From: Eledone cirrhosa
Lineage: Eukaryota
Length of the DNA: 64,000 nucleotides
Direction of reading: 5' to 3'
Assembly (NCBI GenBank): GCA_964016885.1
Contig: OZ024743.1
Coordinates: 166,346,001-166,410,000, forward strand
Made by a program: the position numbers and the translations under genes. The notes beneath the pieces are model-generated. The model had not been told where the DNA came from and made no database searches. It saw only the letters and a list, made by a program, of their open reading frames with translations. Of the stretch, positions 14,447-62,464 are shown piece after piece (the first letter of the stretch is position 1; each line of letters starts with the position of its first letter).

Positions 14447-17400
14447 TATAACGTGGATTACGTGTCAATGGAGATATTAATAGAGTTATCGATTCAGAAG
14501 GCAATGAGGAAAATGACATAATCCATTATAACAAAAATTCCCTTTTATTTGTTGTACAAATATGGAATCGAAATAATAAGAGAAGGTTGAGCAAGTCTTC
14601 ACATCGTATTGGCTGCATATTCCAGTGGAGATGTGAAATAATGTGGCATATCAAATGTCGGACGTCTTGATGCTACCAGGTCGTTCAGTGAACTTTGTCT
14701 CTCTGCCTTGTCAACCAACTGTGTCTCTGGTCCAAATAGTCCAGCAACTTGTCTCAATCCACTGAGGGCCTTGATTGGCTCACACTTCAGCCAATTTACC
14801 TCTGTGCCACCATTCTTCCGCCAAAGAAAAATACATTTAATTCTGTTCACTACAGTACCCTCCGTTTAGATCGAAGATCGATATCAATACATGAGTAGTG
14901 CTAAATATGCAATATGTCTACATGACATCAAACAATAAATAATCATCGGGTACACCGAGAAAACACATACATGAATACAACCAAGAAAAATGAAACATAA
15001 CATAATTGAACAAGCAAAAGTAATTGTTTACATAAGAGTCAAAAGTTTGAACAATATCACAGTTCATATATAGATTGTTTTACTCAATCTCTGAGGCCAA
15101 TGTACTCTACGACCACTACGAGTCGTCGTAACACATGTGGGTGAAGGTAATGAAGGTGTGTGTGATATTGTGGGTGAGTATGCTTGTGAAGGTTCAACAT
15201 CAATGTATTGTATGTAGGGGGTGTATGGGGTTCAACTGGTGGAGCGTCTGTAAAGGCCTGTTTAATCCTATCTACAGAAACTGTTTCCTACCACAAATGT
15301 CTATGGTAAAAAGTTTGTCCGTTTTTGCCAGGACACGGTAGGGTCCTGTATAGGGTGGCACAAGTGGTCCTTTCACTGAGTCTTTATGTAGAAAAACGTG
15401 AGTCCAAGAAGTAATGTTTTTAGTAACCAAAGATTTAATCGTCTGTTGACGTGTTCCCATAGGCGGAAGATCATTGAAATATGATCGCAATCGGTTAATA
15501 TATAACGTAGGATCTTCCCGCGATGCGTCGACTGGGACTAACATCTGTCCCGGTAAGGATAAAGGTGTTCCGTACAGCAATTCCGCTGGGGAATATCCGA
15601 GATCCTCCCTGACCACTGCGCAACAGCCAAGAAGAACTATTGGTAGATATTCACTCCATCTTTGCTGGTCGGGATAAGCACGCAATGCTGCTTTTAATTG
15701 TTGATGAAAGTGTTCTATCATGCCATTTGACGCCAGGTGGTAACTAGTAATTCTAATACAATGTATCCCTAAGATTTTAGAAAGTTCATGGAAGAGATGT
15801 GATTCAAATTGTCCGCCATGGTCAGTGGTGATCGTGGAAGGGACACCGTATCGCGATATCCAGCCAGACATCAGAGCTCGTGCTACCGATTCTGCTGAAA
15901 TCTCTTTGAGAGGAATGGCTTCAGGCCAACGTGTAAAACAGTCGATACACGTAAGAAGGTATGTATATCCATGACTGACCGGCCAAGGTCCAACTAGGTC
16001 GATATGAATATGGTCAAAGCGGGCATCTGGAGCGTTGAATGTGCCCAGAGGTGCTTGAATGTGTTTGTGCACCTTAGACTTCTGGCAAGGTATGCAGGAA
16101 CGAGACCATGCAGTGATATCTCGTCTCATATTTGGCCAAAAGAATCTAGCCGTAATGAGTTTCACTGATGAATGGATTCCAGGGTGTGAGAGGTTGTGTA
16201 ACATGTCGAAAACTGTTCATCGATGAAGTTCCGGAACGAAGGGTTGAGGTGAATCAGTCGATATGTCACACAGGATGCTTGTGTCAGAATTGTGTACAGG
16301 TAATTGTTTGAATTTGCACGTCGCAATTTCGGTTGCAGATTAATCCAAATCGTCCAAAGCAGGCTGGTCAGCAGCGAGCAAACGTAGATCAATATCCGTT
16401 TTTGTCGATAGTGAGTTGATAGGTAAACGAGATAATGCATCTGCCGCTATATTCTGTGATCCGGGAATATGGCGTATATCACTAGTGAATTGTGATACAT
16501 AATCTAAATGTCGAGTTTCACGTGGCGAGTATCTTTCGGGTTTCGCTTTGAGAGCAAATGTCAAAGGACGATGGTCCGTGAAAATCGTAAACGGGCGTCC
16601 TTCCAACGAATGCTGGAAGTGTTTGATTGCCAAGTACATCGCTAACAGTTCTCTGTTAGCGATGTATCGGGTTTCAGCGGGTTTAAGCTGTTTTGAGAAA
16701 TATGCAAGTGGTTGCATCTTCTGGTTGTGGTACTGTTGCAAAACTGCACCTACTGCTGTGCCTGATGTATCAACGACCAGGGAAAACTGGGCATCAGGCA
16801 CAGGATGTGCAAGCAGGGTGACATCAGCTAATTCCTGTTTCACTCTGGAATAAGCTTCGAGTTGAGCAGGGTCTCAAGAAATGACTCATTCTTCTTTCTT
16901 CGGTTCCGCAACAGTTCAGAAAGAGGTGCTATGCGCTCAGGACATGGAATAAAACGACGGTAATAATTTAGCAGTCCCAAGAACTGACGTAATGATGTAG
17001 GAGGAGGTAATTCTTGAAGAGCTTTCACTTTATCTGGTGGAGGTGATATGCCTGTAGGACTAATGGTGTGTCCTAGAAAAACTAGCGAAGACGCACCAAA
17101 TATACACTTCGCGGGGGTTAATGCGAACTTGGTACTTCTTAAAACGTTGAAATAACAAACGAAGGTGTTTAACATGTTCCTCTGGAGATGTGCTAGCAAC
17201 GAGTACGTCGTCTATATAGCAGATTACAAAATCCAGGTCTTTGGTGATTTCGTCCATGAAGCGTTGAAAGGTACTAGCGGCGTTGCGTAGACCAAAGGGC
17301 ATCGTTAGGAACTCAAAAGCACCAAAGGGTGTAGTGATAGCAGTCTTCGGAATATCAGCTGGATTAAGTGGCATCTGATGATACGCTCTGACTAAATCCA

Positions 17401-19120
17401 GCTTTGAAAAAACTGTGCATCCATGTAAGGAAGAAGCAAAATCCTGAATGTGTGGGATCGGGTACTGTCATCACGTTTAATTGGCGAAAGTCCCCAGTCG
17501 GACGCCAATCGCCGGAACGCTTTGGAACCAAATGCAAAGGAGAGGCCCACGGACTGGAGGAAGGGCGTATGATCCCCAACTGCAGCATGTGGTTAAATTC
17601 AGCCTTCGCCGTTTTCAATTTCTTCGCAGGGAGGCAGTGAGAGCGTGAAAATACAGGAGCGCCAAGTTTCGAAATGTTTTGTGGAGTGAGTAGGCTTGCT
17701 TACCACAAAATTCAAATTTGTCAATTCCGGGAAGGAATTTAGAAGCGACTGGAAAGGGTCCTCGGAAGCGGCGATGAAGAGTACCGGGCTGATAGATGAG
17801 ACAGTAGATCTCAAACCCAGAACGGAGAGTTCCGTATTAGCATCCAACAACCGGCGTCTGTGCATATCCACTAAGAGGTTATAGTGGTGCAGGAAATCCG
17901 AGCCTAGAATAGGGTAAGGCAAATCAACGACTGTGAAAATCCATGTGAAGTCTCTTCGCAATTCCAGGTTCAAAGAACGAGAAATTTGACCATACATGGA
18001 GATAGGAGAATGATTTACGGCTTGCAGAGAAATGGATAAAACTGGCGATTTCTCTTTGAGAAGTTTTAGCGGCCATATGCTGGAAGCAGCGCCTGTATCC
18101 ACCAGACATCGAGCTTGGGAAAACGTGTCAGTTATGAAGAACGCACGATTATTTGGGAGTGTCAGAGGAGACTGTGCCGTGCTCAGGTCTCCTGAAATTC
18201 GTTTCCCTGGTTGGAAAAGGAACAGGGCTGTCTACAACAGCGTGCCGCCGCACCAAAACGGCTGTGATAGTATCTCAGTCCTGGTTTATTGTGCGGTGGT
18301 GATGTGGCAAGGGCAAACGGCTCTGGAAGCGACGTCTGGGCGATTGAGCCCTGGAGAAACTTGTGCTATGGCTTGAAGAATTGCCGTAGACGTGCGCGAC
18401 TGATTGGTGTGAATGGCAGCTGCTGGAGAGAACGATGAAACATTATTTTGTCCGCCGAAGACGCCAGTTGCTCGACTGAGCTAGTCTCCATCATAGGCGC
18501 CAATATCGCCTGGACATTGGGCGGCAGCCTCGAAAAGAAAAGCCGTCTCAGGAGGGCGCTGTCAGCTGGAGCGTCCTCCGCCAGTTCTTTCATTCGACGC
18601 AGGAACTGGCTCGGCGTCCGATCACCCAAATGCTCGTCATTTACTAGGGTTTGAAATCTCTTCTCTGCGGACAACGTGGTATGCCACAGAACCTCACGCT
18701 TAACGCTCTCATAGGTGGCTCTATAATGTGTCGCTGGAGATATTAATATAGTTATCGATTCAGAAGGCAATGACGAAAATGACATAATCCATTATAACAA
18801 AAATTCCCTTTTATTTGTTGTACAAATATGGAATCGAAATAACAAGAGAAGGTTGAGCAAGTCTTCACATCGTATTGGCTGCATATTCCTGTGGAGATGT
18901 GAAAGAATGTGGCATATCAAATGTCGGACGTCTTGATGCTACCAGGTCGTTCAGTGAACTTTGTCTCTCTGCCCTGTCAGCCAACTGTGTCTCTGGTCCA
19001 AGTAGTCCAGCAACTTGTCTCGATCCGCTGAGGGTCCTGATTGGCTCACACTTCAGCCAATTCACCTCTGTGACACCATTCTTCCGCCAAGGGAAAATAC
19101 ATTTAATTCTGTTCACTACA
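14447..19120 (-). mobile_element. Ty3/Gypsy LTR retrotransposon, decayed, both LTRs present
   Basis: LTRs at 18722-19120 and 14447-14854, both starting TGTAGTGAAC on the minus strand; PPT-like CGGAGGGTAC; TSD GGTA/GGCA. Gypsy domain order: gag (LGDRTPSQFLRRM), protease (DTGA), RT (CYIDD), RNase H (RELLA..TDH..NIAADALSR), integrase ([22 protein letters not shown]); many frameshifts. Confidence 0.96.
15272..16204 (-). pseudogene. Gypsy integrase ORF (310 aa)
   Basis: HHCC zinc motif, DDE core ([21 protein letters not shown]) and GPY/F motif. Confidence 0.92.
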
Positions 19121-20597: not shown

Positions 20598-20700
20598 CCA
20601 TGCAAAGAAGCAGTAATTTCTTCCATTGCTTTCTTCACATTTTCAAGACGCTTGACAGTCATACGACCTCCATACAGCTGTGCATATTGGCCAAAGGGAT
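20598..20700 (-). CDS. TTF2: TTF2-like exon 5
   Basis: PFGQYAQLYGGRMTVKRLENVKKAMEEITASLH(G); acceptor tcttttcag, donor gtaagc; phase 1 to 2 splices into LHGQLKTCP. Confidence 0.9.
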
Positions 20701-25520: not shown

Positions 25521-25814
25521 TTCATTTGGTTTGTGGTTTGTGCACATTAACATTATACATCCAATACTATTAATAAAATACATACCTGATTTAATAGCTG
25601 TCTTGTGTACTGTCTGACCTCCTGGTTTCTCTGGTGGATGAACCATAACAATTTGAGGTTCATTACAGTCTAAAAGTAATAAGCAAATAAATAAAATATA
25701 CATACACATATATATATATTTGTTCCAGTATATATATTTCCTTGTTCCTTGCCTGCAAGAAAAGTGGAACATTCATGATGATGATGATGATGATGATGAT
25801 ATAAATTTTAAAAA

Positions 25815-28552: not shown

Positions 28553-29099
28553 ATATACATAATTCGTTTTTGAATTTGTTTTATGAGATTTCTTATCTGA
28601 AGACTTGTGTTGAAACAGATATTGTTATACTTTGGGAGGGTCATGCTGCCAATAAAAACACACGCACCTGTTGGTTTCACTTCAAATTATTATATTCATT
28701 ATTATATTCTTACTAGCAGAAAAACCATATGCACACTATCTACATGCATATTATAAGCAAATATATATGCATGTAGATATGAAACGTCAAATGAAATTGT
28801 AATTGACAATATGCACAGAAATTGAATGAAGTCTGTGTTAGACTCTCGTCTGTAATCAGTAAAGTAATCCATGATACATTAAAAAAAGATGATATTAAAT
28901 ATAAACTGCATATACAATAAACTAAAATGTTATGAAATCGAAAAAGGAGAAAATTAGCGACCTAAATATAAACCTTATATAATGATGCAAATATATGAAT
29001 GTTTATATAAGCGATGTGATAAGTGTTATAATATAACAGACGCTAACCGAAAGTGTTGACATTTGAAAATTTTAAAGAAGTGAATCTTAAAATAAGCAA

Positions 29100-29981: not shown

Positions 29982-30700
29982 TTATAGATTCCTACACTGT
30001 CCCTCAGTACAACTTATGCTATATACTACATTCTTAGTTTTGCAGTTAGTTTGCAGGCTTAACTTGCAGACTATGCATTTCCTATCAGCACAGGGTGATC
30101 TTTGAAATGGGTATGTTTTGCTAATTATGGTTTTTATGGGAATACCTGGTCTTTCAACTATCTTAATATCTAATTTGAGCTTGTCTAAGGCCCTTCTAAA
30201 TCTGTAAGCTAATTCGCCTCTAGGGGTTGTATTGATGAACATTATATGTCTAGCTCATGCTAGCATTGACGATAGATGTTAAACGATGATGATGATGATG
30301 ATGATACACTTACTATAGCAATACTGTAGGAATAAGAATATAACATACATAGGTGAAACAACCCGTAGCATAGGAGAAAGAATAAGTGAACACTAGCGAA
30401 AACTCCAGGATGGGAAAAACTCATCAGTACTCCACTAACATGCCAAAATAGAACATAGGGGAACATTAGAGAATATAGAGATAAAAATTATATCCACACA
30501 CAGAAAAGATGCAATCCTCAGACAAATCACAGAGGCAACAAACATAAATAAACTCAAACCAAAATTAAACAGAAAACATGAGTGGAATAGCAACATCACA
30601 ACTAGTCATTAAGGACAAAATGAAGACATACAGGCACACAAAAACCAAACTAACAAAACAAATCAGACACACACAGATAGAACAAACAACCAACTAGTGA
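29982..30700. mobile_element. Penelope-like element remnant with GIY-YIG domain split across strands
   Basis: Minus strand 29982-30250: IVERPG..CIVC..CKTKNVVYSISC. Plus strand from 30325: CRNKNITYIGETTRSIGERISEH, later ITEA..INKLKPKLNRKHEW. Confidence 0.85.
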
Positions 30701-32491: not shown

Positions 32492-35400
32492 AATGACCAT
32501 GCTGTAAAATGGAGGGGTAGAGAGGGCCCTTGAGTCTAGTAAGACATCCTCTCTAGTGCTGGTGGCACAAATAAAAGCACCCAATCCATGCTGTAAAGTG
32601 GCGCTGGTGTTAGGAAGGGCATCCAACCAGTGTATCAATGCCAAAACGCTTATCAGCACAGCAACAAATAGGAACAACAACAAAATATGAAGACGTCGCA
32701 TCTCAGAGTTGCAACACTTAATGTTGGCACTCTCAGAGGTAGATCTGCTGAAATAGCGGAGATACTGGAGAGAAGGCAGGTGGATGTGTGCTGCGTGCAA
32801 GAGGTGAGATGGAGAGGTGCCTCTGCGAGACTAGTCGTAGGCAAGCGTCTTAGCTATAAGCTATTCTGGGTAGGTAAGGATGATGGGTTAGGGGGAGTAG
32901 GCATTTTCCTGGCTGAGAAATGGATCAATAAGACAATAGAGGTAGTTCGAGTTAGTAATCGAATAATTAAGCTTAGATTAGTTGTAGGTAGGAGACTACT
33001 GACAATCATCTCGGTCTATGCTCCCCAAGTAGGCCTAGGCAAAGATGAGAAAGACTGCTTTTATGAGCAACTTTTGCAAACAACCACAATGACAGAGGAC
33101 GGAGACATCGTTATGCTAGCAGGAGACTTCAATGGTCATGTTGGACAGCTCCAGGATGGTTACACTGGGGTACATGGTGGGCACGGTTACGGTTCAAGAA
33201 ATGAAGGAGTGAGACTTCTTGAATTTTGTGATGCAAGTACATTGACTATTTGCAACACAAACTTCCAGAAACCTGCCAATCACCTAATAACCTACAAATC
33301 TGGTGAGCACATAAGCCAGATTGACTTCCTGCTAGTTAGGCAGCGGGACAGGCAGATAGTGTCTAATACCAAGGCATACCCTGGGGAAGAATGTACCCCA
33401 CAGCATAGGTTAGTTGTTAGTGATATCTCAGTAAGCAAGAGATGGAATGAGACATATAGGAAGGTGTGGAGAAGAAAGGTCTGGAAGCTAAAAGACCTTT
33501 CACTAAAATACAAATTTAGGAAAGCCCTTCAAGATGTATATGACGAAAAAGAAGACGATTTAGAGACGTATGACATAGATAATAACTGGAAGTTCTTACG
33601 TGACAACTTGCTGCAGGCTACTGATGAAACCTGTGGCTGGAGCAGAGCTCCAACCAGACAGAGAGTGACCTGGTGGTGGAACAGCACAGTAGATAAGGCT
33701 ATTAGAGACAAAAGACTAGCATGGAAGGCTTGGAAAAAGGGTGGGAGTAGGGAAGAATATACAGCCACTAAGAGAGAAGCTAGACGTCAGGTGTACTTAG
33801 CACGCAGGGAGGCAGAGAGTAGGAGGTTTGCCAATGTTCTGCGACGGGAAGATCAGAGGCGTGCGGTGTTCCACATTGCAAGGCAGTGTGTCAATGCAAA
33901 TCAGGATGTTGTTGGAGATAAATGTGTCCGGGATGATGCCGGTGTACTTAGTGTCACGAATGACCAGAAAAAGGAGGCCTGGAAATGTCATTATGAGAGA
34001 CTGATGAATGTGGAGAACGAATGGGAGAGAGAGAAATTACCCTTGGTAGATCCAACAGAGGGACCAGCTATTGAGATTGACGAATATAGGGTCCAAGAGG
34101 CGATTAGGGAAATGAAAAATGGTAAGGCGGCCGGACCATCGGGAATAGTTGCTGAGATGCTGAAGGCATCAGGGGACGTAGGCACTAAACTGGTTGCACG
34201 CATCATCAATCAGGCTATATATGGTGGTGTCATACCCAAAGACTGGTGCAGCAGTATTCTCATAAATTGCTACAAAGGTAAAGGGGATGCTTTGGAGAGG
34301 AGCAATTATAGGGGTATAAAACTGATAGATCAGGTTATGAAAGTGGCAGAAAGGATTTTAGCACAACTAATTAGAGAAAGGGTCAAACTAAATGAGATGC
34401 AGTTTGGTTTTGTGCCTGGGAAGAGTACAACAGATGCCCTCTTCTTGGTGAGACAAATGCAAGAGAGATTCTTAGAGAAGAATAAGCCACTATACTTAGC
34501 CTTTGTTGACCTAGAGAAGGCCTTTGATAGGGTACCCCGATCTGTCATCTGGTGGTCCCTAAGGAAGCTAGGTGTTGAGGAATGGCTTGTGAGGACAGTG
34601 CAAACTTTGTACAGAGGTACTCTCAGTAAAGTCAGGGTAGGAATGGAGTTTAGTGAGGAATTCCAGATACAAGTAGGAGTACATCAGGGTTCGGTCCTCA
34701 GCCCGCTCTTGTTCATTATAGTCCTCCAAGCCATAACAGAGGAGTTTAAGACTGGCTGTCCATGGGAACTTCTCTATGCTGACGATCTGGCTCTTATAGC
34801 AGAATCAGTAGAGGAGCTAGAGAATAAATTCCGGCTATGGAAACAGCAGTTGGAAGCAAGAGGACTGAGAGTAAATCTAGCTAAGACAAAAGTGTTGATG
34901 AGTAGAAAAGAGGACAAAACCCTGATTCCGTCAGGGAAATGGCCATGTTCGATATGCAGAAAAGGAACTGGCATAAATTCTATAAAATGCACACAATGCA
35001 GGTCCTGGGTACACAAGAGATGTAGCGGGATAGCAGGCAAACTAACAGGTAGGGAGAAATATGTATGCAGTAGATGTACAGGGAAATTAGACAGTAGAAG
35101 TCGCACTGATAGACACATTTTTCAAATGCGAGAGGGCGCTATAGAAGTGGTGGATAGCTTCCGGTACCTAGGAGATCAGATTAGCATGGGAGGAGGGTGT
35201 TCCGAGGCCATAGTATCTAGAATAAGGACGGGTTGGAAGAAGTTTAGGGAGCTGCTTCCTCTGTTGACAAAGAAGGGTTTCTCCCTGTGTACGAAAGGCC
35301 GGTTGTATGATGCCTGTGTGAGGAGCGCGATGCTGCATGGTAGTGAGACATGGGCAGCAACCGCAGAGGATATGCGACGGCTGGAGAGAAATGAGGCAAG

Positions 35401-35779
35401 CATGCTCCGTTGGATGTGCAGTGTAAATGTGCGTGAACGACCCAGCATAAATGTGTTGAGAGAGAAACTGTGTCTGAGAGGGATAGAATGTAGTGTACAG
35501 GAGAGGAGACAGAGGTGGTATGGACATGTGATGTGCATGGAGGATGACCGATGGGTGAAGAAGTGCCAGGAAATGCCAGTTGAAGGAAGACGTGGTAGAG
35601 GTAGACCACGAAAAACATCGGCGGAGGTGGTGAGAACAGACCTCAGATCATTGAAAATCACGGCGGAGATGACGAGGGACCGTGACGAGTGGAGAGATGC
35701 TGTGCTGAATAAGACCCGTCCCACCCTTGCAAGCAGGGAAAAGCGGACGTAAAATGATGATGATGATGATGATGATGAT
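32492..35779 (+). mobile_element. RTE/BovB-clade LINE (family A), antisense in a TTF2 intron
   Basis: Short 5' UTR with the AAAAGCACCC..GTTAGGAAGGGCATCC module, a single long ORF, and an (ATG)n tail directly after the stop codon. No clear TSD. Confidence 0.95.
32687..35752 (+). CDS. RTE ORF: APE endonuclease, reverse transcriptase, C4HC3 finger, C-terminal domain (1021 aa, uninterrupted)
   Basis: TLNVGTL, VQEVRW, YAPQ, GDFNGH, IDFLL, QHRLV (APE); AAGPSG, NYRGIKL, QFGF, FVDLEKAFD, QGSVLSP, YADD, FRYLG (RT); RWYGHV, RGRGRPRKT. Confidence 0.97.
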   Translation: MKTSHLRVATLNVGTLRGRSAEIAEILERRQVDVCCVQEVRWRGASARLVVGKRLSYKLFWVGKDDGLGGVGIFLAEKWINKTIEVVRVSNRIIKLRLVVGRRLLTIISVYAPQVGLGKDEKDCFYEQLLQTTTMTEDGDIVMLAGDFNGHVGQLQDGYTGVHGGHGYGSRNEGVRLLEFCDASTLTICNTNFQKPANHLITYKSGEHISQIDFLLVRQRDRQIVSNTKAYPGEECTPQHRLVVSDISVSKRWNETYRKVWRRKVWKLKDLSLKYKFRKALQDVYDEKEDDLETYDIDNNWKFLRDNLLQATDETCGWSRAPTRQRVTWWWNSTVDKAIRDKRLAWKAWKKGGSREEYTATKREARRQVYLARREAESRRFANVLRREDQRRAVFHIARQCVNANQDVVGDKCVRDDAGVLSVTNDQKKEAWKCHYERLMNVENEWEREKLPLVDPTEGPAIEIDEYRVQEAIREMKNGKAAGPSGIVAEMLKASGDVGTKLVARIINQAIYGGVIPKDWCSSILINCYKGKGDALERSNYRGIKLIDQVMKVAERILAQLIRERVKLNEMQFGFVPGKSTTDALFLVRQMQERFLEKNKPLYLAFVDLEKAFDRVPRSVIWWSLRKLGVEEWLVRTVQTLYRGTLSKVRVGMEFSEEFQIQVGVHQGSVLSPLLFIIVLQAITEEFKTGCPWELLYADDLALIAESVEELENKFRLWKQQLEARGLRVNLAKTKVLMSRKEDKTLIPSGKWPCSICRKGTGINSIKCTQCRSWVHKRCSGIAGKLTGREKYVCSRCTGKLDSRSRTDRHIFQMREGAIEVVDSFRYLGDQISMGGGCSEAIVSRIRTGWKKFRELLPLLTKKGFSLCTKGRLYDACVRSAMLHGSETWAATAEDMRRLERNEASMLRWMCSVNVRERPSINVLREKLCLRGIECSVQERRQRWYGHVMCMEDDRWVKKCQEMPVEGRRGRGRPRKTSAEVVRTDLRSLKITAEMTRDRDEWRDAVLNKTRPTLASREKRT

Positions 35780-37214: not shown

Positions 37215-37334
37215 TGTGTATTAGCTCTGCCTGTTGAGTGCTTTTTAATACAATCTGATATACATACTTTTATTAGAATGCTGTTGAAGTGTGTGTACAT
37301 TTTGGGGAGAGGGGGACACCCTGTATATATTGTT

Positions 37335-37575
37335 ATAGAAGAATCAGATGCAGTGTGCAGGAAAGGAGATTGCGCTGGTATGGACATGTGATGCATATGA
37401 AGGATGACAACTGTATAAAAAGGTGCAGAGCACTTAAAATCGATGGAAACCATAGAGTGGGGAGACACAGGAAGACTTGGGGCGATGTGATAAAAGCTGA
37501 GCTTGCCCAATTGCACCTCTCAAAGGCAATGACACAGGACCAGGATCTCTGACATTATGCAGTAATACAGAAGTA
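37335..37575 (+). mobile_element. RTE family B 3' fragment
   Basis: IRCSVQERRLRWYGHVMHMKDD...RKTW. Confidence 0.85.
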
Positions 37576-37623
37576 CCGATTTCCCACGGGCACAGGTAAA
37601 AAATGAAGCATATGTATGATATG

Positions 37624-37669
37624 CACCAGAATTCTTTCATCACACATATCTGTGACGTCATCAGTGATG
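37624..37669 (-). ncRNA. Minimal type I hammerhead ribozyme at the Penelope 3' end
   Basis: CAUCA-CUGAUGA-C-GUCACA(GAUAUG)UGUGAU-GAAA-GAAU-UC/UGGUG: intact core boxes, 6-bp stem II, 5-bp stem I, palindromic GAAUUC at helix III. Confidence 0.78.
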
Positions 37670-38646
37670 TTTCTGTTTCCTCCCATTGTATTGCTATACT
37701 GTTTTCTTATTCCATTCTTTTTTTTTTTGTGTTTTTGCGTGTTCGTGACTGAGCCTGTTTGAGTTTATGTGTTTATATTCTACTTTTGGTCACTAGTGTG
37801 TTTATGTGTGGTTGTTATTCCATTCATGTTTTCTGTTTAGATATTATTTCAATTTCTATGTTGTCTGTATTACAATCATGTTTTAGTCTGTTGTGTTCAT
37901 ATAGTTCTGAATTGTCTTTTTGTTCTTTTAATTCACTTCAATGTTCATCTATCCCCTCTCCTATGCTACGGACTGTTTCTTCTATATATGTCATTGTCAT
38001 ATTTCTGCAGGCACCCTCTGTATATCTTATGCAACAGACTACATTTCTATTTTTACAATTTATTTATGGACTTACTCTACATATTACCCATTTCTTATTT
38101 GTACAGCGGATTTTCTTAAAGGGGTAAGTTATACTGACCAGACATTTTATGATAGTTCCTGGCTTTTCTACCATTTTAATATTCAAAGGTCTTTCTAAAT
38201 TGCTTAGGTAGTTAACCTCCAAGGGTTGCACCCATGAACATGACACTGGTATCTCTGGTTGTCGTACCATGAAGTGGCTTTCCCTATCTTTTATCTAGTC
38301 TATCTATGCTATTCCATGATTTGCTCCTGTACAATGGGCAAACCCCTTTCATGTCCATCTCTATGAAGGTCTTATATTTAGCTGTGGCCCCTTTGTACAC
38401 CCTGATTCTGTCTCTTTGGTTGTAACCAGAGAATTGCATGCGATTGATGATGGGTTGTACGTGTCTCTCCAGTTTAGTTGGATTGCACATGCGGGACATA
38501 TTCTTTATCACTCTTACTAAGTCTGAGATCAGGATATTAAACTTAGCCCTATTGGACATTACCGAGTGTTTGTGCATTAGGTATTTGGAGGCCATAGGTT
38601 TAGCATAATGTGAGTGGAGGATTTTGGCTTTCTCATTTATAGTATA

Positions 38647-39048
38647 CTAGCAGATTTATCCGGCGTTGCTCGGGGTTTGAAATTATGCTAAGAATATACA
38701 GCTAGGAAGTAAAAAAAGAACATTATTTGTCCCCAACCTGTCAAAATAAGCAGAAGTCTTCAATAATTAATGCAAACGAATATATTTGGTGAAAAGGTTA
38801 TCTCCCTTTTTTATAAAGATTGACAATAAAGTTTGTTATCTCCCTTACATCAATTTTTCTACCGATAATGTTGATATCGATTTTTTATTGCTCAAGGTGG
38901 GTCGATTTGAAAAATGTTTGTGATGTGACAATCTTAGCGAACTGTGCAACGTGCACAGAAAATTTGGTCAAATTCAGTTGGTAATTGTGAAAGCCTTATC
39001 CATGCAAAGTTGTACACACACACACACTCGCTTTTATATATATAAAGA
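38647..39048 (-). mobile_element. Non-autonomous Helitron-like element nested in the Penelope
   Basis: A|TCTTTATATATATAAAAG start and CCCGAGCAACGCCGG hairpin with CTAG|T end on the minus strand; same hairpin as at 29618. Confidence 0.85.
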
Positions 39049-40429
39049 TAACCAGAGTTCTGTGTCTAATTCTGGTAATCAATTGTTAGGGAGTTTGGAA
39101 GGGTAGCCGATAGTTACTGTGATGCACTGGTGTATGGAATTAGCTATTTGCTGGATGCCCTCCATCTTGTTAGATTCTAATTTGGGTTTATCAGTACTCT
39201 CTTGTAGGGGTGTTTATATTACTATACTAATGTCTACATAATGAAAGTACAGGATGAAGTTGTCTTCTAGACCTTCTTTGAGTCCTTTCCCACCAAACCA
39301 TAAATAGGTTGGCAATATCGCCAACAATGCTGATGGCCGCTCCTTCGACTTGGGTGTATGCTTTCTTATTAAATTTGAACATGTAGCCCTTTAAAGTAGT
39401 CTCAGTACTAGCTCCACCTGGGGGCTTTTTTGTTATTGAGGGTATGGTAGGGGTTTACCTCTTATTAGTCTACTGGGGCAGAAACTGTTGAGGTCATGAT
39501 TGTCTAGATATTCTCTGTCACATATAAGTCTAAGTAGGAGGCCCAGTTCGTCCGTGTCAACATCACAGAACTCTACCTCACTCTCACTGATTATTTTCAA
39601 ACATTTTTCCACAGCAATATCAACGTCAATGGATGGGTATATATCTATACTGCTATTTTGCAGTTTGTTAGGTCTTTGGTGTAGTTGCAATCGTTGATTC
39701 TGCTGAGGAGGTCCTCTGTGTTGTCACACACATAAGATTTTATAGTTGCTGGCTATATTGGCTCTGCAGAGAGGTCTTGTTGGTGGTCCTGTTATAGGGT
39801 CAATAGCTGGTTTATGGTCTTTGCGGAGCCCATACCAGGGTGGTATGTCATTGTTAGAAGCCTGGAAATTATTGGCCGTGCATCTATTTGGTCTTAGGAT
39901 GTTGGTCTACGTCATCATGTGAGCATTGAGGATCCCTTCCCTTTCCTCATGTGTTTGTGGTGTTGTTTCACTCGAGTTGATGAGGTTGGGTTGCACAGCC
40001 TTGATGTAGTTCGGCATGCAGTCTCTTGTTTGAAGGTAGAAACACTATCTCACCATCCCTTGTGTGCTGCATGAGGCTTTGAAGACCCTCTGCAGGCTTT
40101 CTCCCAAGTTGTTGGACCTCTGGTCTGTTCTGTCTCCTAGTATATTGTTCCAAGCCAAAATCAGAGATACATATAACCCTTCATCAATCGCAGCAGTACC
40201 ATAGTTTATGAGGGATTTTGAGCCAGTTGGCCGCAACAAGGGAGCCATGTTACTGGGTGGGCCTGCCATCGACTGTGTTTATAGTGCGGGCTGGGTGGCG
40301 CCGTTATAAGCCAAGTCCAGGGTTGAGTTGTCAACACGAGTCTTTTGTTGTAGTGCCAGAGGACTTGGTCATTTGTCATCCTCATTGGGAGATTCAGGTG
40401 TGTCTTCCTCTTTTGGGGCTTCCTGCAAC

Positions 40430-42485: not shown

Positions 42486-43154
42486 ATACTCTATTTCACC
42501 CTACAGATGAAGAAGATTGGTGCAAAACATGACACAACAGCGACCTTATAATTTCATTAGTTGAGGGCCTATGAGACAATACAATATGATGATATAAAAG
42601 TGTATTTGCTCCAGACTGCCTTCTATTGCAATATATAAGACTCAACAATTCAACCCACACTACACAAGAAAATTTGTCTCAAACCTCTATCGACATGAGT
42701 CCAGATAGAGAACTAAGAGTAAAAATGCTTGTTTCAAAATAAGTCAATCACCCACGCACTTAACCATTTTTATACTAAACTGCCTGAAATTACCCTTAGT
42801 TCTATGATTCCAGATTGTTTATTTTAAAGTATTTATCTAAAAACCTTAAGTAATAATTGTATGTAAAGTTCTTTATGTTCCAAACTCCAAAACCAGTTTA
42901 ATGGTTAAAACAAAATATGGCATGAGCAAAAAAAATGCATTATAAAGTAAAACCTCAAATGTCATCTCTCCCTTAAATTATGTTCTTCCTGTTCTTTTCC
43001 ATTTTCAGTAACCCCTTACATTTTAGAAGCTTTATTGCCTTGCTTAGGGTGAGTGGAAAAAAAACTAAAACATAAAAATAAATAAAATTAGTGGTGATGG
43101 GAGGAGGAGAAAAGAATGGAATGTGGTAGGAATATAGTAGAAAGTGTAACTTAC

Positions 43155-43284
43155 TCTTAGACATTCTAGAAGATTTTTCACTTAGATCTATATTCTGGAT
43201 TTTCTTTTCCAAACAATTAATATTTTCTTTAAGGCGAGCACCTTTATCTGGAAGAGCCGCTAACTGCACACGAGATAACAGCTC
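43155..43284 (-). CDS. TTF2: TTF2-like exon 3 (LPDKG coiled-coil motif)
   Basis: ELLSRVQLAALPDKGARLKENINCLEKKIQNIDLSEKSSRMSK; LPDKG is conserved in TTF2 N-termini; acceptor tattcaag, donor gtaagt; phase 0 to 1. Confidence 0.9.
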
Positions 43285-43748
43285 CTTGAATAGAAACAAA
43301 AATGACACATACATGTCTCTTGCCCAAGCATTTTTGCTATTACTAGCTGACCCTGTGGACATTAAAGCAGTTTAATTAGAAACAAGTATTATTTTAACTG
43401 TTTTATTTATAAGCTATATATACTCTTTTACCTGTTCTATGGCTGAGGCCATGCTGGGGCACCACCCATTGCAACCGAAGTTGCAGCTGCAAGTAGCAGA
43501 TTCGCATCCAATTTTCGAAGGCTATCACAAAGCACTTGATGAGAGTAGTCAATAAATTACTCCTCAGAGTAATCACAATAAGTTAGGTAATAGTGACACA
43601 ATAAGTTACAATAGTGACATATACAGGTACTTAAGTTTCGTTGGTTTATTCAGCCCAACTCATTTAGCCTATTATATAAATAAAGATGGCTATCCCCATG
43701 GCTGTTTTAGAAAGTATAGTAGAGTTCTAAGGGTAAGTAATCCTGAAA

Positions 43749-49584: not shown

Positions 49585-49800
49585 TCTAATTTAGGCATAA
49601 GGCTAACAATTTGTGGAGTGGGAGAAAGTTGATTACATTGACCCAGTACATGGCTGATACTTTATTTTATCGACCCCACCCAGAAGGATGAAAGACAAAA
49701 CTGACCTTAGCAGAATCTGAACTTAGAGCATAAAGAGCTGTAACTTAATACTGCAAAGCATTTTGTCTGATGCCATAATGATTCTGCCAATCCATCACCC
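49585..49800 (-). mobile_element. Older tRNA SINE copy
   Basis: ttttatcgacccc..aggatgaaag body on the plus strand. Confidence 0.75.
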
Positions 49801-49852
49801 TAATAATAATAATAACAATAATCGAAAACAATTCAACTAAATTACCACCAAC

Positions 49853-50053
49853 CTTTTGCCTTTGAAGAGTATTTTTAAGATTGACTTTCTCACTGTTCTG
49901 CTTCGAAGTAACTTTAACTGGACTGTCCCTCCATTGAGTGAAGCTATCGTTAGCATCTTTCACATCCTTCTTAGCTTCTAACTTCTTTTCATTTTTAAAT
50001 ATTGGTGCTTTGTGATCAGTCTTACTCAATGATGAAAACGAAGGAGCATCATT
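49853..50053 (-). CDS. TTF2: TTF2-like exon 2
   Basis: NDAPSFSS...KVNLKNTLQRQK, 201 nt, phase 0 to 0, donor gttggt; joins ELLSRVQLAALPDKG as in the TTF2 L..QK..L..V....LPDKG motif. The acceptor position is less certain. Confidence 0.78.
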
Positions 50054-50209
50054 CTTTTCAATTTTAACCAATTCATTTGTGATTTCATTGCAGTAGGTGA
50101 AGAAAACAGAAAAGAAAAAAAGAATCAAATACTTTCCGATTTTAATCTTCATATTTATAAACACAATATTGACCCTTTATTTAAACATATTCCATTTTAA
50201 ACTAATGAA

Positions 50210-58709: not shown

Positions 58710-61700
58710 ATCATCATCATCATCATCATCGTTTAATGTCCCTGTTCCACGCTTGCATGGGTTTGGACGGGGGTTTTCCCACTTGAGGCAAGAGTGGTTG
58801 TCTTGCTCGCATAGGACTGTCTGGCGGGTTTTCTACAGCTGGATGCCCTTCCTAACACCAACCACATTTACAGTGTGGGGCTGGGAGGTTTTTACCGTGT
58901 TGCCTACACGGCCACATTACAGCGTGGACTGTCTGGCGTGTTTTCTACAGCTGGATGCCCTTCCTAACACCAACCACATTTACAGTGTGGGACTGGGAGG
59001 TTTTTACCGTGTTGCCTACACGGCCACATTACAGCGTGGACTGTTTTTTTTTGTCGTGACACCTACACGATCTCATTTGTTTCGGCCTGGATGTTGTGGC
59101 ACCAACATAACTTTGCATTGAAGGGGGCGGTGTGGATGGGGTGGGACGGGGGTGTATTTTGTTAGAGATGCCTACTGACTGTAGTAGGTTTTACTTTGTA
59201 TTTAGGTAAGGCGGGTCTTCTCTGTTACTGAGTACCGCCAAAGGTCTCGGTCCAGTGACATTGTCTTGGAGAGGTGTGTGTGAGGTCGGAATTTATCAGC
59301 TCGTCCCAGGTTTTCCTGGGTCTGCCTACTCCGTGGCTACCATCTATCTTTATTGCCCTGCACTTTGTTATACAGCTGTCGTCTTTCATGCGCATCACGT
59401 GACCATACCAACGTAGCCTTCTCTCGAGTAAACAACATCTGATCCCTCTTATTTCTAATTTTTTCCTTAGTTCGTTTATGCTCTGCCGTTCACGTATATT
59501 ACTATTACACATCCAGCGGAGCATGCAAGCTTCGTTCCTCCCTAGTCTGCGTATATCCTCTGCACACAATGCCCAGGTCTCACTGCCATGCAACATTGCT
59601 GTTCGTATGCAGGCATCATACAACCTGCCTTTCGTTTTTAGGGAGAACCCTTTAGCGGCTAATAGTGGTATAAGCTCTCTGAACTTTTTCCATCCAGTTC
59701 TGACTCTAGCTACTGTACTTTCAGAGCACCCTCCCCCACTGCTGATTTTGTCACCCAGGTAACGGAAGCTGTCCACTATTTCTATAGAACCCTCTGCGCA
59801 ATTAAAAGAGCTAGTATTTTGTGGGCACTTGCTGCTACTTATTGCACCAGAGCACCGGCCACATGTAAAATCTGTGTTCTTAGTTAGCTTACCTGTGATC
59901 CCACTACATCTTTTATGCACCCATACTTTGCATTTGGGACATAAAATGGAGTTTCTAACTACGCCTTTCCTACACACTGAGCATGGCCATTTTCCGGAGG
60001 GGACCGGCGCCTTATTTTCTTTCCTACAAACTAGAACTTTAGTCTTAGCCAGGTTAATTTTAAGGCCTTTTGATTCTAGGCCGTGCTTCCATGTTTGGAA
60101 TTTCTTCTCTAGCTCGGCCATTGATTCAGCTATGAGCGTTAGATCATCTGCGTATAGGAGTTCCCATGGGCAGCCGGTCTTGAACTCCTCTGTTATAGCC
60201 TGAAGGGCAATAATAAATAGTAGGGGGCTAAGAACAGAGCCCTGATGGACACCAACTTTTACGCTAAACTCTTCACTATATTCGTTGTTAATTCTAACCT
60301 TGCTGACTGTTTCTTTATACATGGCTTGTATGGCTCTCACAAGCCATTCGTCAACACCTAGTTTTCAAAGAGCCCACCAGATAATGGAACGGGGGACTCT
60401 GTCGAAGGCTTTCTCCAAGTCGACAAAAGCTAAGTATAGGGGTTTACTTTTAGCTAGGTACTTCTCCTGTAGTTGTCGTACAATGAAAAGAGCGTCTGTG
60501 GTACTTTTGCCTGACACAAACCCAAACTGCATTTCATCTAGATCAATTCTCTCTCTGATTAGTTGCGCTATTACTTTTTCCGTGACCTTCATGACCTGGT
60601 CAATTAATTTAATGCCTCTATAGTTACTCCTATCTAGGGCGTCTCCTTTACCCTTGTAACAGTTAACAATGATGCTGTTACGCCAGTCCTTCGGAACAAC
60701 CCCATTCTGTATGACTTGGTTTACTATCCGGGTGACCATGGTGTGTCCCACCGTACCGGAGGCTTTCAGCATCTCGGCAACTATTTCCGAAGGCCCAGCC
60801 GCCTTACCCATCTTCATATCTTTGATTGCCTTACTTATTATACTACCTTCGACTAACACTGCTGGTCCCTCTATTGGGTCAATGTGGGGGAGACTGTCTT
60901 TCTCCCATTTATTCTCCTCATTTAGTAGCCTTTCGTAGTGACACTTCCAAGCTACCTTCTTATCAGCGTCAGTGATGGCAAGCACGCCATCATCGTTAAG
61001 TACACACTTCTCCCCGACAATATCACGGTTTTCCTTGACACATTGCCTAGCAATCCTGAACACCTCACATTTTTGGTCCTCGCGTTGTAGAACATGCTTG
61101 AACTTTCTTTCCTCTGCTTCCCTCCTGGCCACTTGATAGTCTTCTCTACTTCCCCCATCCCGCCATGCTTTCCAAGCCTGCTTTTTGGCCTTGATTGACC
61201 CCTCCACCTTACTGTTCCACCACCATGTTACTCTCCTCCTGCCTACAGGCCTGCTCCAGCCACAGACTTTGTCTGCCGCCATCAGCAGGTTTGCTTTCAG
61301 GAATTCCCACTGTTCCTCTACCTTGTACGACTCTAATTGCTCTTCCTTACTGTCGAAAGCATCAAGTAATATGCTTTGAAATTTATTTCTGGCTGTGGGA
61401 TCTTTTAGCTTCCATATTTTTCTCCTGAGGATAGTCCTCTTCTGCTGTCTAGTACGTCTCGTCCTGACTATGAGGTCGCTAATTATCATGTTGGGAGGTG
61501 CATTCTTCATGGGGGAGGGATTTAGTGTTTACAACAGACACTCTGTCACGTCTTCTGGTAAGGATATAATCTACCTGGCTGGTATGTTCTCCTGATCTGT
61601 AGGTGATCAAGTGATTGTCTCGTTTTTTGAAGTTAGTGTTACAGATAGTTAGGTTGTTTGCATCACAGAATTCCAGGATTCTGGAGCCTTCCTCGTTTCT

Positions 61701-62354
61701 AGTACCAAACCCATAGCCTCCGTGGATTTCGTCATAGCCGTCACAATGTTGTCCAACGTGACCATTTAGGTCGCCAGCAATAATTATATAGTCACTGTCG
61801 GTTATTTGGGAGGTAGTGAGCATCAGTGTCTCATAGAATCTGTCTTTTATAGTGCCAGGCAGTCCGGATTGGGGCGCGTATGCAGATATTACTGTCACAG
61901 TAGTTCTGTTTAGAACAAGTCTTATTTTAATTATTCTGTCATTCACTCTATTTACATCTATTATCTTATCCACCCATTTTTCTGCTAACATGATTCCTAC
62001 CCCACCTATCCCATTGTCATTCCCCACCCAGAAAAGCTTATAGCAACGTTTTTTACCCACAATGAATCTAGCAGACCCGCCCCTCCACCTGGTCTCTTGG
62101 ATACAGCAAACATCAACCTCCTTACGTTCAAGCAATTCTACAACCTCGTTAGAGCGGCCTTTTAAGGTGCCTACGTTCATGGTACCAACTCTGAAGTTTT
62201 GGATTGTGTTTGGAGGATGGGGCGCAGGGAGGGGTGAGGGGAATGAGTTTGGGGTTATGTTGGCCATCCGCGGCCGAAACAAAGAGGAGGGGGCCTTGCC
62301 CCTTCGTCCGGCAGCATGAGGTGAATTTGTCGTTATCTTTGGCATTGTCATCAA
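58710..62354 (-). mobile_element. Near full-length RTE/BovB LINE (family B) with few frameshifts
   Basis: Consecutive ORFs 61479-62354 (APE), 60365-61510 and 59225-60340 (RT with YADD and C4HC3 finger), ~500-bp 3' UTR, (ATG)n tail. Confidence 0.96.
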
Positions 62355-62464
62355 GTGTCCAGATTCTTCAGACTCTCCAGAAATTCCTTAGTCCATCCAT
62401 CATATCGAAAAGCAGCCAGTAGTGATAGCATAGGCCGTTGACTTGTGATTGGTCCAAACAGTAA

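What the first reader, a model, noticed from the sequence alone, without database searches (positions are those of the whole stretch)
37624..37669. Minimal hammerhead ribozyme that reads in the TTF2 pre-mRNA sense
Seen (minus strand): CAUCA CUGAUGA C GUCACA-GAUAUG-UGUGAU GAAA GAAU UC/ UGGUG, with both core boxes intact, predicted cleavage after UUC and a palindromic GAAUUC helix III. Established: Penelope-like elements carry minimal type I hammerheads with very short, palindromic helix III that act as dimers. Inference: it lies on the same strand as the host gene, so it is transcribed within the 20-kb intron and could cut the nascent intron.
Basis: partly seen in the sequence, partly recalled or inferred. 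Interest (0 to 1): 0.72.

Follow-up and report, generated by a model that had tools for sequence, protein, structure and literature searches.

The report
Broken Penelope hammerhead relic in intron
This is a decayed, cut-off copy of the small hammerhead RNA motif that Penelope-like jumping genes carry by the thousand in this genome; it sits in an intron of the TTF2 gene and is likely an inert passenger rather than a working RNA cutter.

Summary
The letters are there exactly as described (window 37669-37624, minus strand), and a full hammerhead descriptor hits only this site in the window, against 1 of 300 simulated windows.

It belongs to a 5'-truncated, frameshifted Penelope-like element (PLE) copy (40153-37627, minus). 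That copy lies in sense orientation in the ~17.5-kb intron between TTF2 exons at 43308-43117 and 25664-25590.

At family level the motif looks like a real PLE hammerhead:
- Full-length relatives show repeat-ORF-repeat with the motif on both sides.
- Helix II keeps pairing through two compensatory changes between subfamilies.
- The only core difference is at the free position N7.
- It has the unpaired base between A9 and 10.1 that is typical of PLE hammerheads.
- One 29-nt core occurs 8,708 times exactly in the genome.

This copy, however, is broken:
- PLE sequence stops 2 nt after the predicted cut site.
- The helix I 3' strand (GUG) comes from an unrelated antisense LINE fragment.
- G10.1-C11.1 has decayed to G-U.
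- The GAAUUC palindrome is one base out of register and would pair C17.
- No partner copy exists in the window.

The scan has many earlier PLE-hammerhead notes on other DNA, none at this locus. Verdict: an ordinary relic of a known kind. Cleavage is untested and unlikely.

The parts
37624..37669 (-). Hammerhead-like motif. Helix I 5' strand 37669-37665; CUGAUGA 37664-37658; unpaired C 37657; helix II 37656-37651 with 37644-37639 and loop 37650-37645; GAAA 37638-37635; G-A-A-U-U 37634-37630; C17 37629; helix I 3' strand 37628-37624.
   Evidence: Sequence read. It is the only hit of the full descriptor and of family model R1 (83.7 bits; the model includes this row).
37627..40153 (-). Penelope-like element copy. 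It is 5'-truncated (starts near residue 471 of a 1217-aa relative), frame-broken, and cut off 2 nt after the predicted hammerhead cleavage site.
   Evidence: tblastn of the L075 ORF on the window covers aa 471-1175 at 40153-37830, in several frames. It is 77-81% identical in DNA to L031 and L032 over 38645-37627. The frames are broken.
37277..37628 (+). Fragment of a LINE: C-terminal ORF piece 37277-37552 plus part of its 3'UTR. It is truncated at its 3' side where it meets the PLE copy. TG at 37628-37627 is shared microhomology.
   Evidence: ORF listing. Alignment to a second LINE fragment. The family has 2009 first-look candidates. In 0 of 11 other copies does PLE sequence follow, and at least 7 of 11 continue with shared LINE 3'UTR.
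43117..43308 (-). TTF2 exon upstream of the intron that holds the motif (aligns to residues 185-248 of an Octopus sinensis TTF2).
   Evidence: tblastn of P0002 on the window, 61% identity, E 1e-14. P0002 is named by NCBI as transcription termination factor 2.
25590..25664 (-). Next TTF2 exon downstream of the intron (aligns to residues 238-262).
   Evidence: tblastn of P0002, 64% identity, E 3e-6. Further exons lie at 22558-22442, 20707-20600, 14251-14093, 11958-11815 and 9808-9647. The last two hit Pfam's SNF2-related domain.

Best explanation
The 46-base motif is the hammerhead-type motif of the 3' repeat of an old, 5'-truncated and frameshifted Penelope-like retroelement copy that lies in sense orientation inside a 17.5-kb TTF2 intron, and it is likely catalytically inert there.

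**In intact relatives.** The motif sits in both repeats that flank an ORF with reverse-transcriptase and GIY-YIG-type endonuclease motifs. By analogy with published PLE hammerheads, it is predicted to cut long or tandem PLE transcripts. It would do so weakly, as a dimer or with help from the element's protein. That role is inferred, not shown.

**In this copy.**
- PLE sequence ends two bases after the predicted cut site.
- The rest of helix I is supplied by chance by an unrelated antisense LINE fragment.
- The G10.1-C11.1 pair has decayed to G-U at a CpG.
- Position 16.2 has changed C to U.
- No partner copy is present in the window.

The motif would be transcribed as part of the TTF2 pre-mRNA. 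The most likely outcome is that it is spliced out and degraded with the intron.
For: **It is a PLE.**
- maps residues 471-1175 of a 1217-aa relative (L075 ORF) to window 40153-37830, minus strand.
- That ORF carries the motifs YVDD and NVVYSIRC...YIGETARSIGERIDQH, which I read by eye as reverse transcriptase and GIY-YIG.
- Pfam gives a weak RVT_1 hit, E 1.3e-4.
- The nearest Atlas clusters carry HTH_animal, RVT_1 and GIY-YIG at score 0.97.

**Position of the motif in relatives.** Model R1 hits L075 upstream of the ORF (7431-7326), downstream of it (3298-3193), and in an inverted neighbour (8268-8373). This is the published repeat-ORF-repeat layout (PMC8557442 and PMC6765202, passages read).

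**The family motif behaves like RNA structure** (55 rows, 51 distinct).
- Helix II is 96% paired.
- Two helix II pairs switch on both sides between subfamilies: U-A 25 against C-G 23, and A-U 25 against G-C 25.
- A15.1-U16.1 is kept in 49 of 50 rows.
- C3, G12, A13, A14 and A15.1 are invariant.
- The subfamilies differ in the core only at N7 (U or C).

**PLE-specific traits** listed in PMC4209133 (passages) are present: an unpaired base between A9 and 10.1, a long helix II and a short helix I.

**Abundance.** The younger subfamily's 29-nt core occurs 4352 + 4356 times exactly, against 0 for the reversed control.

**This copy is broken.**
- There is no partner in the window.
- The hammerhead fold scores -7.3 kcal/mol against an MFE of -9.7, with z = -0.30.

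**Published activity.** Single min-hammerheads gave no detectable cleavage in vitro and dimers gave low cleavage (PMC4209133). An Anolis PLE hammerhead cut only when the element's protein was added (PMC11167929, passages read).
Against: - The catalytic core of this copy is intact, and its chimeric helix I (5 bp) is better than the family's own. The family conserves only 2 bp, and its outer three positions are 43% paired. Activity therefore cannot be excluded from sequence alone.
- Thousands of sibling copies could in principle supply partner RNAs or protein in trans.
- No cleavage assay or RNA data exist for this copy or for the family.
- The two covarying helix II pairs separate just two subfamilies, so they may reflect as few as two events.
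- Pfam does not recognise the GIY-YIG domain.
- No Rfam hammerhead model hits this copy or an intact relative.
Confidence: 0.8

Rival explanations
1. One reading: the motif is an active minimal hammerhead that cuts the nascent TTF2 intron, alone or as a dimer through GAAUUC.
For: - The core boxes are intact, and helix I has 5 bp and helix II 6 bp.
- It is on the same strand as TTF2 and inside an intron.
- The full descriptor is rare by chance.
- The genome holds thousands of sibling motifs.
Against: - The helix I 3' strand is LINE-derived by accident.
- In the hammerhead register, helix III (AGAAUU) does not self-pair (+1.4 kcal/mol). The GAAUUC duplex (-3.6) would pair C17, which must stay unpaired.
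- The 10.1-11.1 pair is G-U.
- There is no second copy in the window.
- The dimer MFE pairs the two helix II hairpins, not helix III.
- In longer contexts CAGAA pairs with UUCUG across the cut site.
- Intact PLE min-hammerheads are already very poor in vitro (PMC4209133).
Confidence: 0.05
2. The look-alike is not a ribozyme at any level: the PLE tail merely contains CUGANGA and GAAA around a hairpin that has some other role, or none.
For: - No Rfam hammerhead model hits this copy or an intact relative, even at E up to 10.
- The family conserves only a 2-bp helix I.
- Helix III is not palindromic in register in most copies.
- Cleavage has never been tested.
Against: - The motif sits where published PLE hammerheads sit, in both repeats.
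- It has the idiosyncratic unpaired base after A9.
- Helix II covaries.
- The only core difference is at the one free position, N7.
- G10.1-C11.1 is kept in 28 of 50 rows. The G-U cases (18) sit at a CpG, so CpG decay would explain them.
- The Drosophila virilis Penelope hammerhead is also described with a 2-bp helix I (PMC4209133).
Confidence: 0.1
3. The end of the PLE copy 2 nt after the cut site is not a coincidence: the copy was made from, or recombined at, a hammerhead-cleaved RNA end.
For: PLE homology ends at +2 relative to C17, with TG microhomology to the LINE fragment.
Against: - Among the 21 other independent old-subfamily copies, none ends within 30 nt of the cut site. Their downstream ends range from +35 to +261.
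- The two repeats are in opposite orientation, which a simple template switch does not give.
- The LINE fragment is itself truncated inside its 3'UTR.
- No LINE continuation lies beyond the PLE 5' end.
- A deletion or end-joining event explains all of this.
Confidence: 0.05

Closest known systems
Minimal hammerheads (min-HHR) of metazoan Penelope-like elements, Cervera and de la Pena 2014 (PMC4209133; passages read)
   Same: Type I order; located in the element's flanking repeats; long helix II (6-7 bp); short helix I; an unpaired base between A9 and 10.1; G10.1-C11.1 in CpG-preserved copies; a very short helix III.
   Different: - The family conserves only 2 bp of helix I.
- The 15.1-16.1 hexamer is self-complementary only through G-U pairs in the commonest younger variant (AGAUUU), and not at all in this copy (AGAAUU).
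- This copy is a truncated chimera with a LINE.
Atypical hammerhead of Drosophila virilis Penelope (same paper)
   Same: A 2-bp helix I, a 6-bp helix II with the unpaired base at its 5' end, and failure to match standard descriptors.
   Different: The D. virilis motif has a bulge inside helix II and a 2-nt palindromic insertion in helix III. Neither is seen here.
Poseidon PAc hammerhead of Anolis carolinensis, Frangieh et al. 2024 (PMC11167929; passages read)
   Same: A PLE repeat hammerhead near the ORF start, with weak intrinsic activity.
   Different: - PAc was assayed. It cut only with the element's protein, and cleavage was not needed for insertion in vitro.
- Nothing has been assayed here.
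- In PAc the ORF begins inside the motif. Here the motif lies about 140 nt upstream of the open frame.
Metazoan non-LTR retrozymes (PMC7229834, abstract seen; Li et al. 2026 preprint 10.64898/2026.07.22.740005, abstract and section 13 read)
   Same: Type I hammerheads derived from or related to PLE repeats; many copies lie in introns (about 43% overlap introns in Xenopus tropicalis).
   Different: Retrozymes are short tandem units expressed as circular RNAs. This is a single fragment of an autonomous-type element.
[quoted passage not shown]
   Same: A hammerhead in the sense strand of an intron of a protein-coding gene.
   Different: Those are conserved at orthologous positions and fold as stable monomers.

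Membership tests
Hammerhead ribozyme, type I | Core C3-U-G-A-N-G-A9, G12-A-A14, A15.1-U16.1, H17 | tested here: met
   In the window: CUGAUGA, GAAA, A...U, C17. In the family: C3, G12, A13, A14 and A15.1 are invariant, and A15.1-U16.1 holds in 49 of 50 rows.
Hammerhead ribozyme, type I | Helix II supported by compensatory change | tested here: met
   helix II is 96% paired, and two pairs change on both sides between subfamilies (25 against 23, and 25 against 25). These are possibly only two events.
Hammerhead ribozyme, type I | Helix I formed by the element's own flanks | tested here: not met
   In the family only CA/UG (2 bp, 93%) is conserved, and the outer three positions are 43% paired. 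The window's 5 bp use LINE-derived GUG.
Hammerhead ribozyme, type I | Match to curated Rfam hammerhead models | tested here: not met
   No hit at gathering score on the window, nor at E up to 10 on 37400-37900. The control also fails on an intact relative, L047 2500-2800, so this test is uninformative for this variant.
Hammerhead ribozyme, type I | Site-specific self-cleavage | not testable with these tools
   No RNA run is listed for this organism and there is no bench assay.
PLE min-hammerhead (Cervera and de la Pena 2014) | Unpaired nucleotide between A9 and 10.1 | tested here: met
   C at 37657 in the window; U (C in two old-subfamily rows, including the window) in the family rows that keep this stretch.
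PLE min-hammerhead (Cervera and de la Pena 2014) | G10.1-C11.1 pair | tested here: not met
   The window has G-U. In the family: G-C 28, G-U 18, other 4 of 50. The position is a CpG, so decay is the likely cause (inference).
PLE min-hammerhead (Cervera and de la Pena 2014) | Palindromic 15.2-16.2 / helix III able to form an intermolecular helix | tested here: not met
   Window AGAAUU self-duplex +1.4 kcal/mol; old subfamily AGAACU +1.4; younger AGAUUU 0.0 (six pairs by hand, two of them G-U); out-of-register GAAUUC -3.6.
PLE min-hammerhead (Cervera and de la Pena 2014) | Located in the repeats flanking a PLE ORF, with a second copy nearby | tested here: inconclusive
   Met in the full-length relative L075, with hits on both sides of the ORF plus an inverted one. 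Not met for the window copy: it has one motif only and no second hit in 64 kb.
Penelope-like element, canonical endonuclease-bearing type | [quoted passage not shown] | tested here: inconclusive
   The 1217-aa ORF carries YVDD and NVVYSIRC...YIGET...R..DQH, read by eye. RVT_1 is weak, E 1.3e-4, below Pfam's cut-off. Pfam gives no GIY-YIG hit. Atlas neighbours carry RVT_1 and GIY-YIG.
Penelope-like element, canonical endonuclease-bearing type | Partial tandem and inverted arrangement, 5' truncation, microsatellite targets | tested here: met
   - Repeat-ORF-repeat plus an inverted copy.
- Cores spaced 4145-4147 nt apart on C1 near 14.38 Mb.
- Variable 5' ends.
- Many copies end in (TA)n.
Functional intronic ribozyme of a host gene | Conservation at the orthologous intron position in other species | not tested
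   No relatives of this genome are held (header).

The most novel reading that the evidence does not exclude
The accidental fusion with a LINE fragment gave this relic a stronger helix I than its parent elements have. With protein or partner RNA supplied in trans by the thousands of sibling Penelope copies, it cuts the nascent TTF2 intron and so tunes the output of a transcription termination factor.
Probability: 0.03. Interest if true: 0.6.

Novelty: new member of a known kind. Interest (0 to 1): 0.15.

Why it matters
For the locus itself it matters little. Sense-oriented PLE hammerhead relics in introns must be common in a genome that holds at least 8,708 exact copies of one core, and comparable elements overlap introns in about 43% of cases in Xenopus (preprint section 13).

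The useful by-products are at family level.
- This genome, whose TTF2 is closest to Octopus proteins, carries an apparently young, very abundant canonical PLE with open frames up to 1217 aa.
- Its repeat hammerhead has a 2-bp helix I and a helix III that self-pairs only through G-U.
- Rfam models miss it.
- Such a family is a convenient natural case for asking whether PLE hammerheads need dimers or the element's protein.

My two literature searches on the point found no paper describing a cephalopod PLE hammerhead of this kind. One search ('hammerhead ribozyme' + 'octopus') gave 5 papers, and the only relevant one discusses Naiads. One search covered PLE, hammerhead, Naiad and pLTR.

Tried and rejected
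- **Rfam.** No hit at gathering score on the whole window. No hammerhead at E up to 10 around the site. The same failure on an intact relative shows the test is blind to this variant.
- **RNA evidence.** No RNA holder was listed for the host-gene stretch (3 runs, none on record as RNA). Read laying was therefore not used, and expression and RNA ends remain unknown.
- **Thermodynamic folding.** It gave no signal for or against (z from -0.08 to -0.50).
- **A weak mir-190 match** (15.3 bits, E 5.9) was rejected as chance.
- **Pfam on the PLE ORFs.** It returned nothing apart from a weak RVT_1 hit. The PDB sequence search gave only marginal reverse-transcriptase hits (E 0.047).
- **Was the PLE inserted into a LINE?** I looked for the LINE 3'UTR continuation beyond the PLE 5' end and found none.
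- **Does the tail fragment at 28656-28564 belong to this copy?** It more likely belongs to the inverted PLE pair at 29985-30567. This was left open.
- **A GRF zinc-finger exon** of TTF2 was not found in the window.
- **Lunse et al. 2017** (PMC5785218) is not held, so its dimer data are cited only through the review PMC6765202.
- **Earlier findings of the scan.** Look-ups at this place and by sequence returned nothing.

Full report
**Observation.**
- Loose core patterns are not unusual in this window: 6 hits against 2.5 expected, and 8 against 4.3.
- A full descriptor asked for the core, 0-1 extra base, a helix II of at least 5 bp, GAAA, U-H and a helix I of at least 4 bp. It finds only this site on both strands, and it found a site in 1 of 300 first-order Markov simulations of the window.
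- Rfam 15 gives no hammerhead hit at gathering score or at E up to 10 in 37400-37900.
- Rfam also fails on an intact relative of the motif (L047 2500-2800), so this negative says nothing.

**What the motif belongs to.** A 201-nt query around the site has 725 first-look candidates in the 3.0-Gb genome. The 39 scored non-self matches are 79-90% identical and cover window 37730-37627.
- Aligning 29 fetched loci shows an interspersed repeat with variable 5' ends. Nine of these loci are near-identical copies from one duplicated region of contig C24.
- The repeat continues 190-260 nt beyond the predicted cut site and often ends next to (TA)n.
- Two of the 21 independent copies (L005, L008) and the window extend more than 1 kb upstream.
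- In L031 that upstream part is a 320-aa open frame ending in NVVYSIRC...YIGETARSVGERIEEH.

**The younger subfamily.** Searching the genome with that protein gives 32,702 first-look candidates. The 145 scored include open frames of up to 1217 aa.
- A full-length example (L075, minus strand) has a 1217-aa frame with YVDD and the GIY-YIG-like block.
- Pfam sees only a weak RVT_1 match: E 1.3e-4, 22.1 bits, below the cut-off. It sees no GIY-YIG.
- The nearest ESM Atlas clusters (0.97) carry HTH_animal, RVT_1 and GIY-YIG.
- My covariance model R1 hits L075 upstream of the frame (7431-7326), downstream of it (3298-3193) and in an inverted neighbour (8268-8373).
- This is the repeat-ORF-repeat layout, with an inverted truncated copy, that is described for Penelope-like elements, whose hammerheads lie in the repeats (PMC8557442 and PMC6765202, passages read).
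- tblastn of the L075 frame maps residues 471-1175 to window 40153-37830 in several frames. The window therefore holds a 5'-truncated, frame-broken copy.

**Is the family motif a hammerhead?** Alignment A2 has 55 rows: the window, 24 rows of the older subfamily and 30 of the younger one. I dropped seven C24 duplicates, the loci that repeat the window, L005 or L008, and one partial hit.
- The older form reads CUGAUGA-Y-GUCACA-loop-UGUGAY-GAAA-GAACUC|UGAGAAACUAUA.
- The younger form reads CUGACGA-U-GUUGCA-GAUG-UGCAAC-GAAA-GAUUUA|UGAUAAACUAUA, or GAACUU|UGAUAAAC.
- Counting pairs (51 distinct rows), helix II is 96% paired.
- Two helix II pairs change on both sides: U-A 25 against C-G 23, and A-U 25 against G-C 25.
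- A15.1-U16.1 holds in 49 of 50 rows, and 15.2-16.2 is G-C in 28 and G-U in 20.
- Sliding the 3' partners by 1-3 columns drops pairing from 83% to 19-51%.
- The two subfamilies differ in the core only at N7.
- The unpaired base after A9, the long helix II and the short helix I are the traits that Cervera and de la Pena list for PLE min-hammerheads (PMC4209133).
- Against a clean fit, only 2 bp of helix I (CA/UG, 93%) are conserved and the next three positions pair in 43% of cells. The same paper describes a 2-bp helix I for Drosophila virilis Penelope.
- The covariation separates only two subfamilies, so it may reflect few events.
- The younger 29-nt core occurs 4352 + 4356 times exactly, against 0 for the reversed control. 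Some runs are spaced 4145-4147 nt apart, which indicates tandem elements.

**Why this copy is a relic.** PLE homology ends at 37627, two bases after C17.
- From 37626, or from 37628 if the shared TG is counted, the minus strand is the antisense of a LINE 3'UTR.
- In 0 of 11 other copies of that LINE does PLE sequence follow. At least 7 of 11 continue with shared LINE 3'UTR, so the LINE piece is itself truncated.
- The GUG that completes the 5-bp helix I is therefore foreign. About 3.5% of window 3-mers would do the same.
- The window has U at 11.1 where 28 of 50 family rows have C (a CpG position).
- It has U at 16.2 where the older subfamily has C.
- In the hammerhead register the helix III hexamer is AGAAUU, whose self-duplex is unfavourable (+1.4 kcal/mol). 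The GAAUUC palindrome (-3.6) is shifted by one base and would pair C17.
- The predicted dimer MFE pairs the two helix II hairpins instead.
- As a monomer the hammerhead fold scores -7.3 against an MFE of -9.7 (z -0.30). In longer contexts CAGAA pairs with UUCUG across the cut site.
- Model R1 finds no second copy in the 64-kb window: the next best hit is 21 bits, E 0.19, in a microsatellite. No partner exists in cis within this stretch of the pre-mRNA.

**Host gene.** An open frame at 49748-50176 (minus) matches the N-terminal part of Octopus sinensis 'transcription termination factor 2 isoform X2' at 59% identity, E 3e-19.
- tblastn of that protein places nine exon pieces on the minus strand: 51577-51515, 50089-49853, 43308-43117, 25664-25590, 22558-22442, 20707-20600, 14251-14093, 11958-11815 and 9808-9647.
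- The last two also hit Pfam's SNF2-related domain.
- No RNA run was listed for this organism, so transcription and RNA ends could not be examined.

**Mechanism.**
- Shown: the anatomy above.
- Inferred from published PLE work: in intact elements the repeat hammerhead would process long or tandem transcripts, weakly and as dimers or with the element's protein. Single min-hammerheads showed no detectable cleavage in vitro and dimers showed low cleavage (PMC4209133). The Anolis PAc motif cut only with protein, and cleavage was not needed for insertion in vitro (PMC11167929).
- For the window copy I infer that it is transcribed within the intron and removed with it, without cutting.

**Comparison and novelty.** The thing works like, and at family level is best filed with, the PLE repeat hammerheads. 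The window copy fails several family features (own helix I, G10.1-C11.1, in-register palindrome, nearby partner) because it is decayed and truncated.
- Intronic copies of PLE-related hammerhead repeats are common elsewhere: about 43% overlap introns in Xenopus (preprint 10.64898/2026.07.22.740005, section 13).
- The scan's own notes hold 4652 findings with the words hammerhead and Penelope in at least 81 genomes. Two of these on other pieces of this genome concern a different, rearranged motif. None concerns this locus.
- I rate the finding a new member of a known kind, of low interest.
- The family-level by-product is a very abundant, apparently young PLE whose hammerhead Rfam misses. It is the part worth keeping.

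Noticed in passing
window 1-7759 and 8105-8517: A 32-bp minisatellite, 242.6 copies at 94% match plus a 12.9-copy outlier. It causes the strong AT skew of the first 8 kb and lies just downstream (in gene sense) of the TTF2 exon at 9808-9647.
   Followed up: partly
window 32672-35752 (+): An uninterrupted 1026-aa LINE frame (Exo_endo_phos, RVT_1, PHD) lies antisense inside the same TTF2 intron. A related but broken LINE lies at 59228-62387 (-).
   Followed up: partly
window 15275-17467 (-): Fragments of an LTR-retrotransposon pol (integrase, RNase H, RVT_1) lie in the TTF2 intron between the exons at 20600 and 14251.
   Followed up: no
window 29985-30567 and 28564-28656: A head-to-head inverted pair of PLE endonuclease-region fragments (29985-30245 minus, 30241-30567 plus), and a separate PLE tail/5' piece abutting a LINE 3' end. 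No hammerhead motif survives there.
   Followed up: partly
G000:C1:14381872-14394339 and genome-wide: The younger PLE subfamily's 29-nt hammerhead core occurs 8,708 times exactly. Some runs are spaced 4145-4147 nt apart, which points to tandem arrays of whole elements with open frames up to 1217 aa: possibly a still-active family.
   Followed up: partly
L016, L023-L030 (G000:C24, 0.79-30 Mb): Nine or more near-identical copies of an old-subfamily tail, each with an inverted second copy about 250 nt upstream. Neighbours are 34-40 kb apart at 13.81-13.92 Mb and 14.13-14.17 Mb, which suggests a large segmental or tandem duplication on C24.
   Followed up: no
L031 5016-6668: A long, regular tandem array (coding-like periodic frames, unit about 90 nt) lies upstream of the PLE copy on C27.
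   Followed up: no
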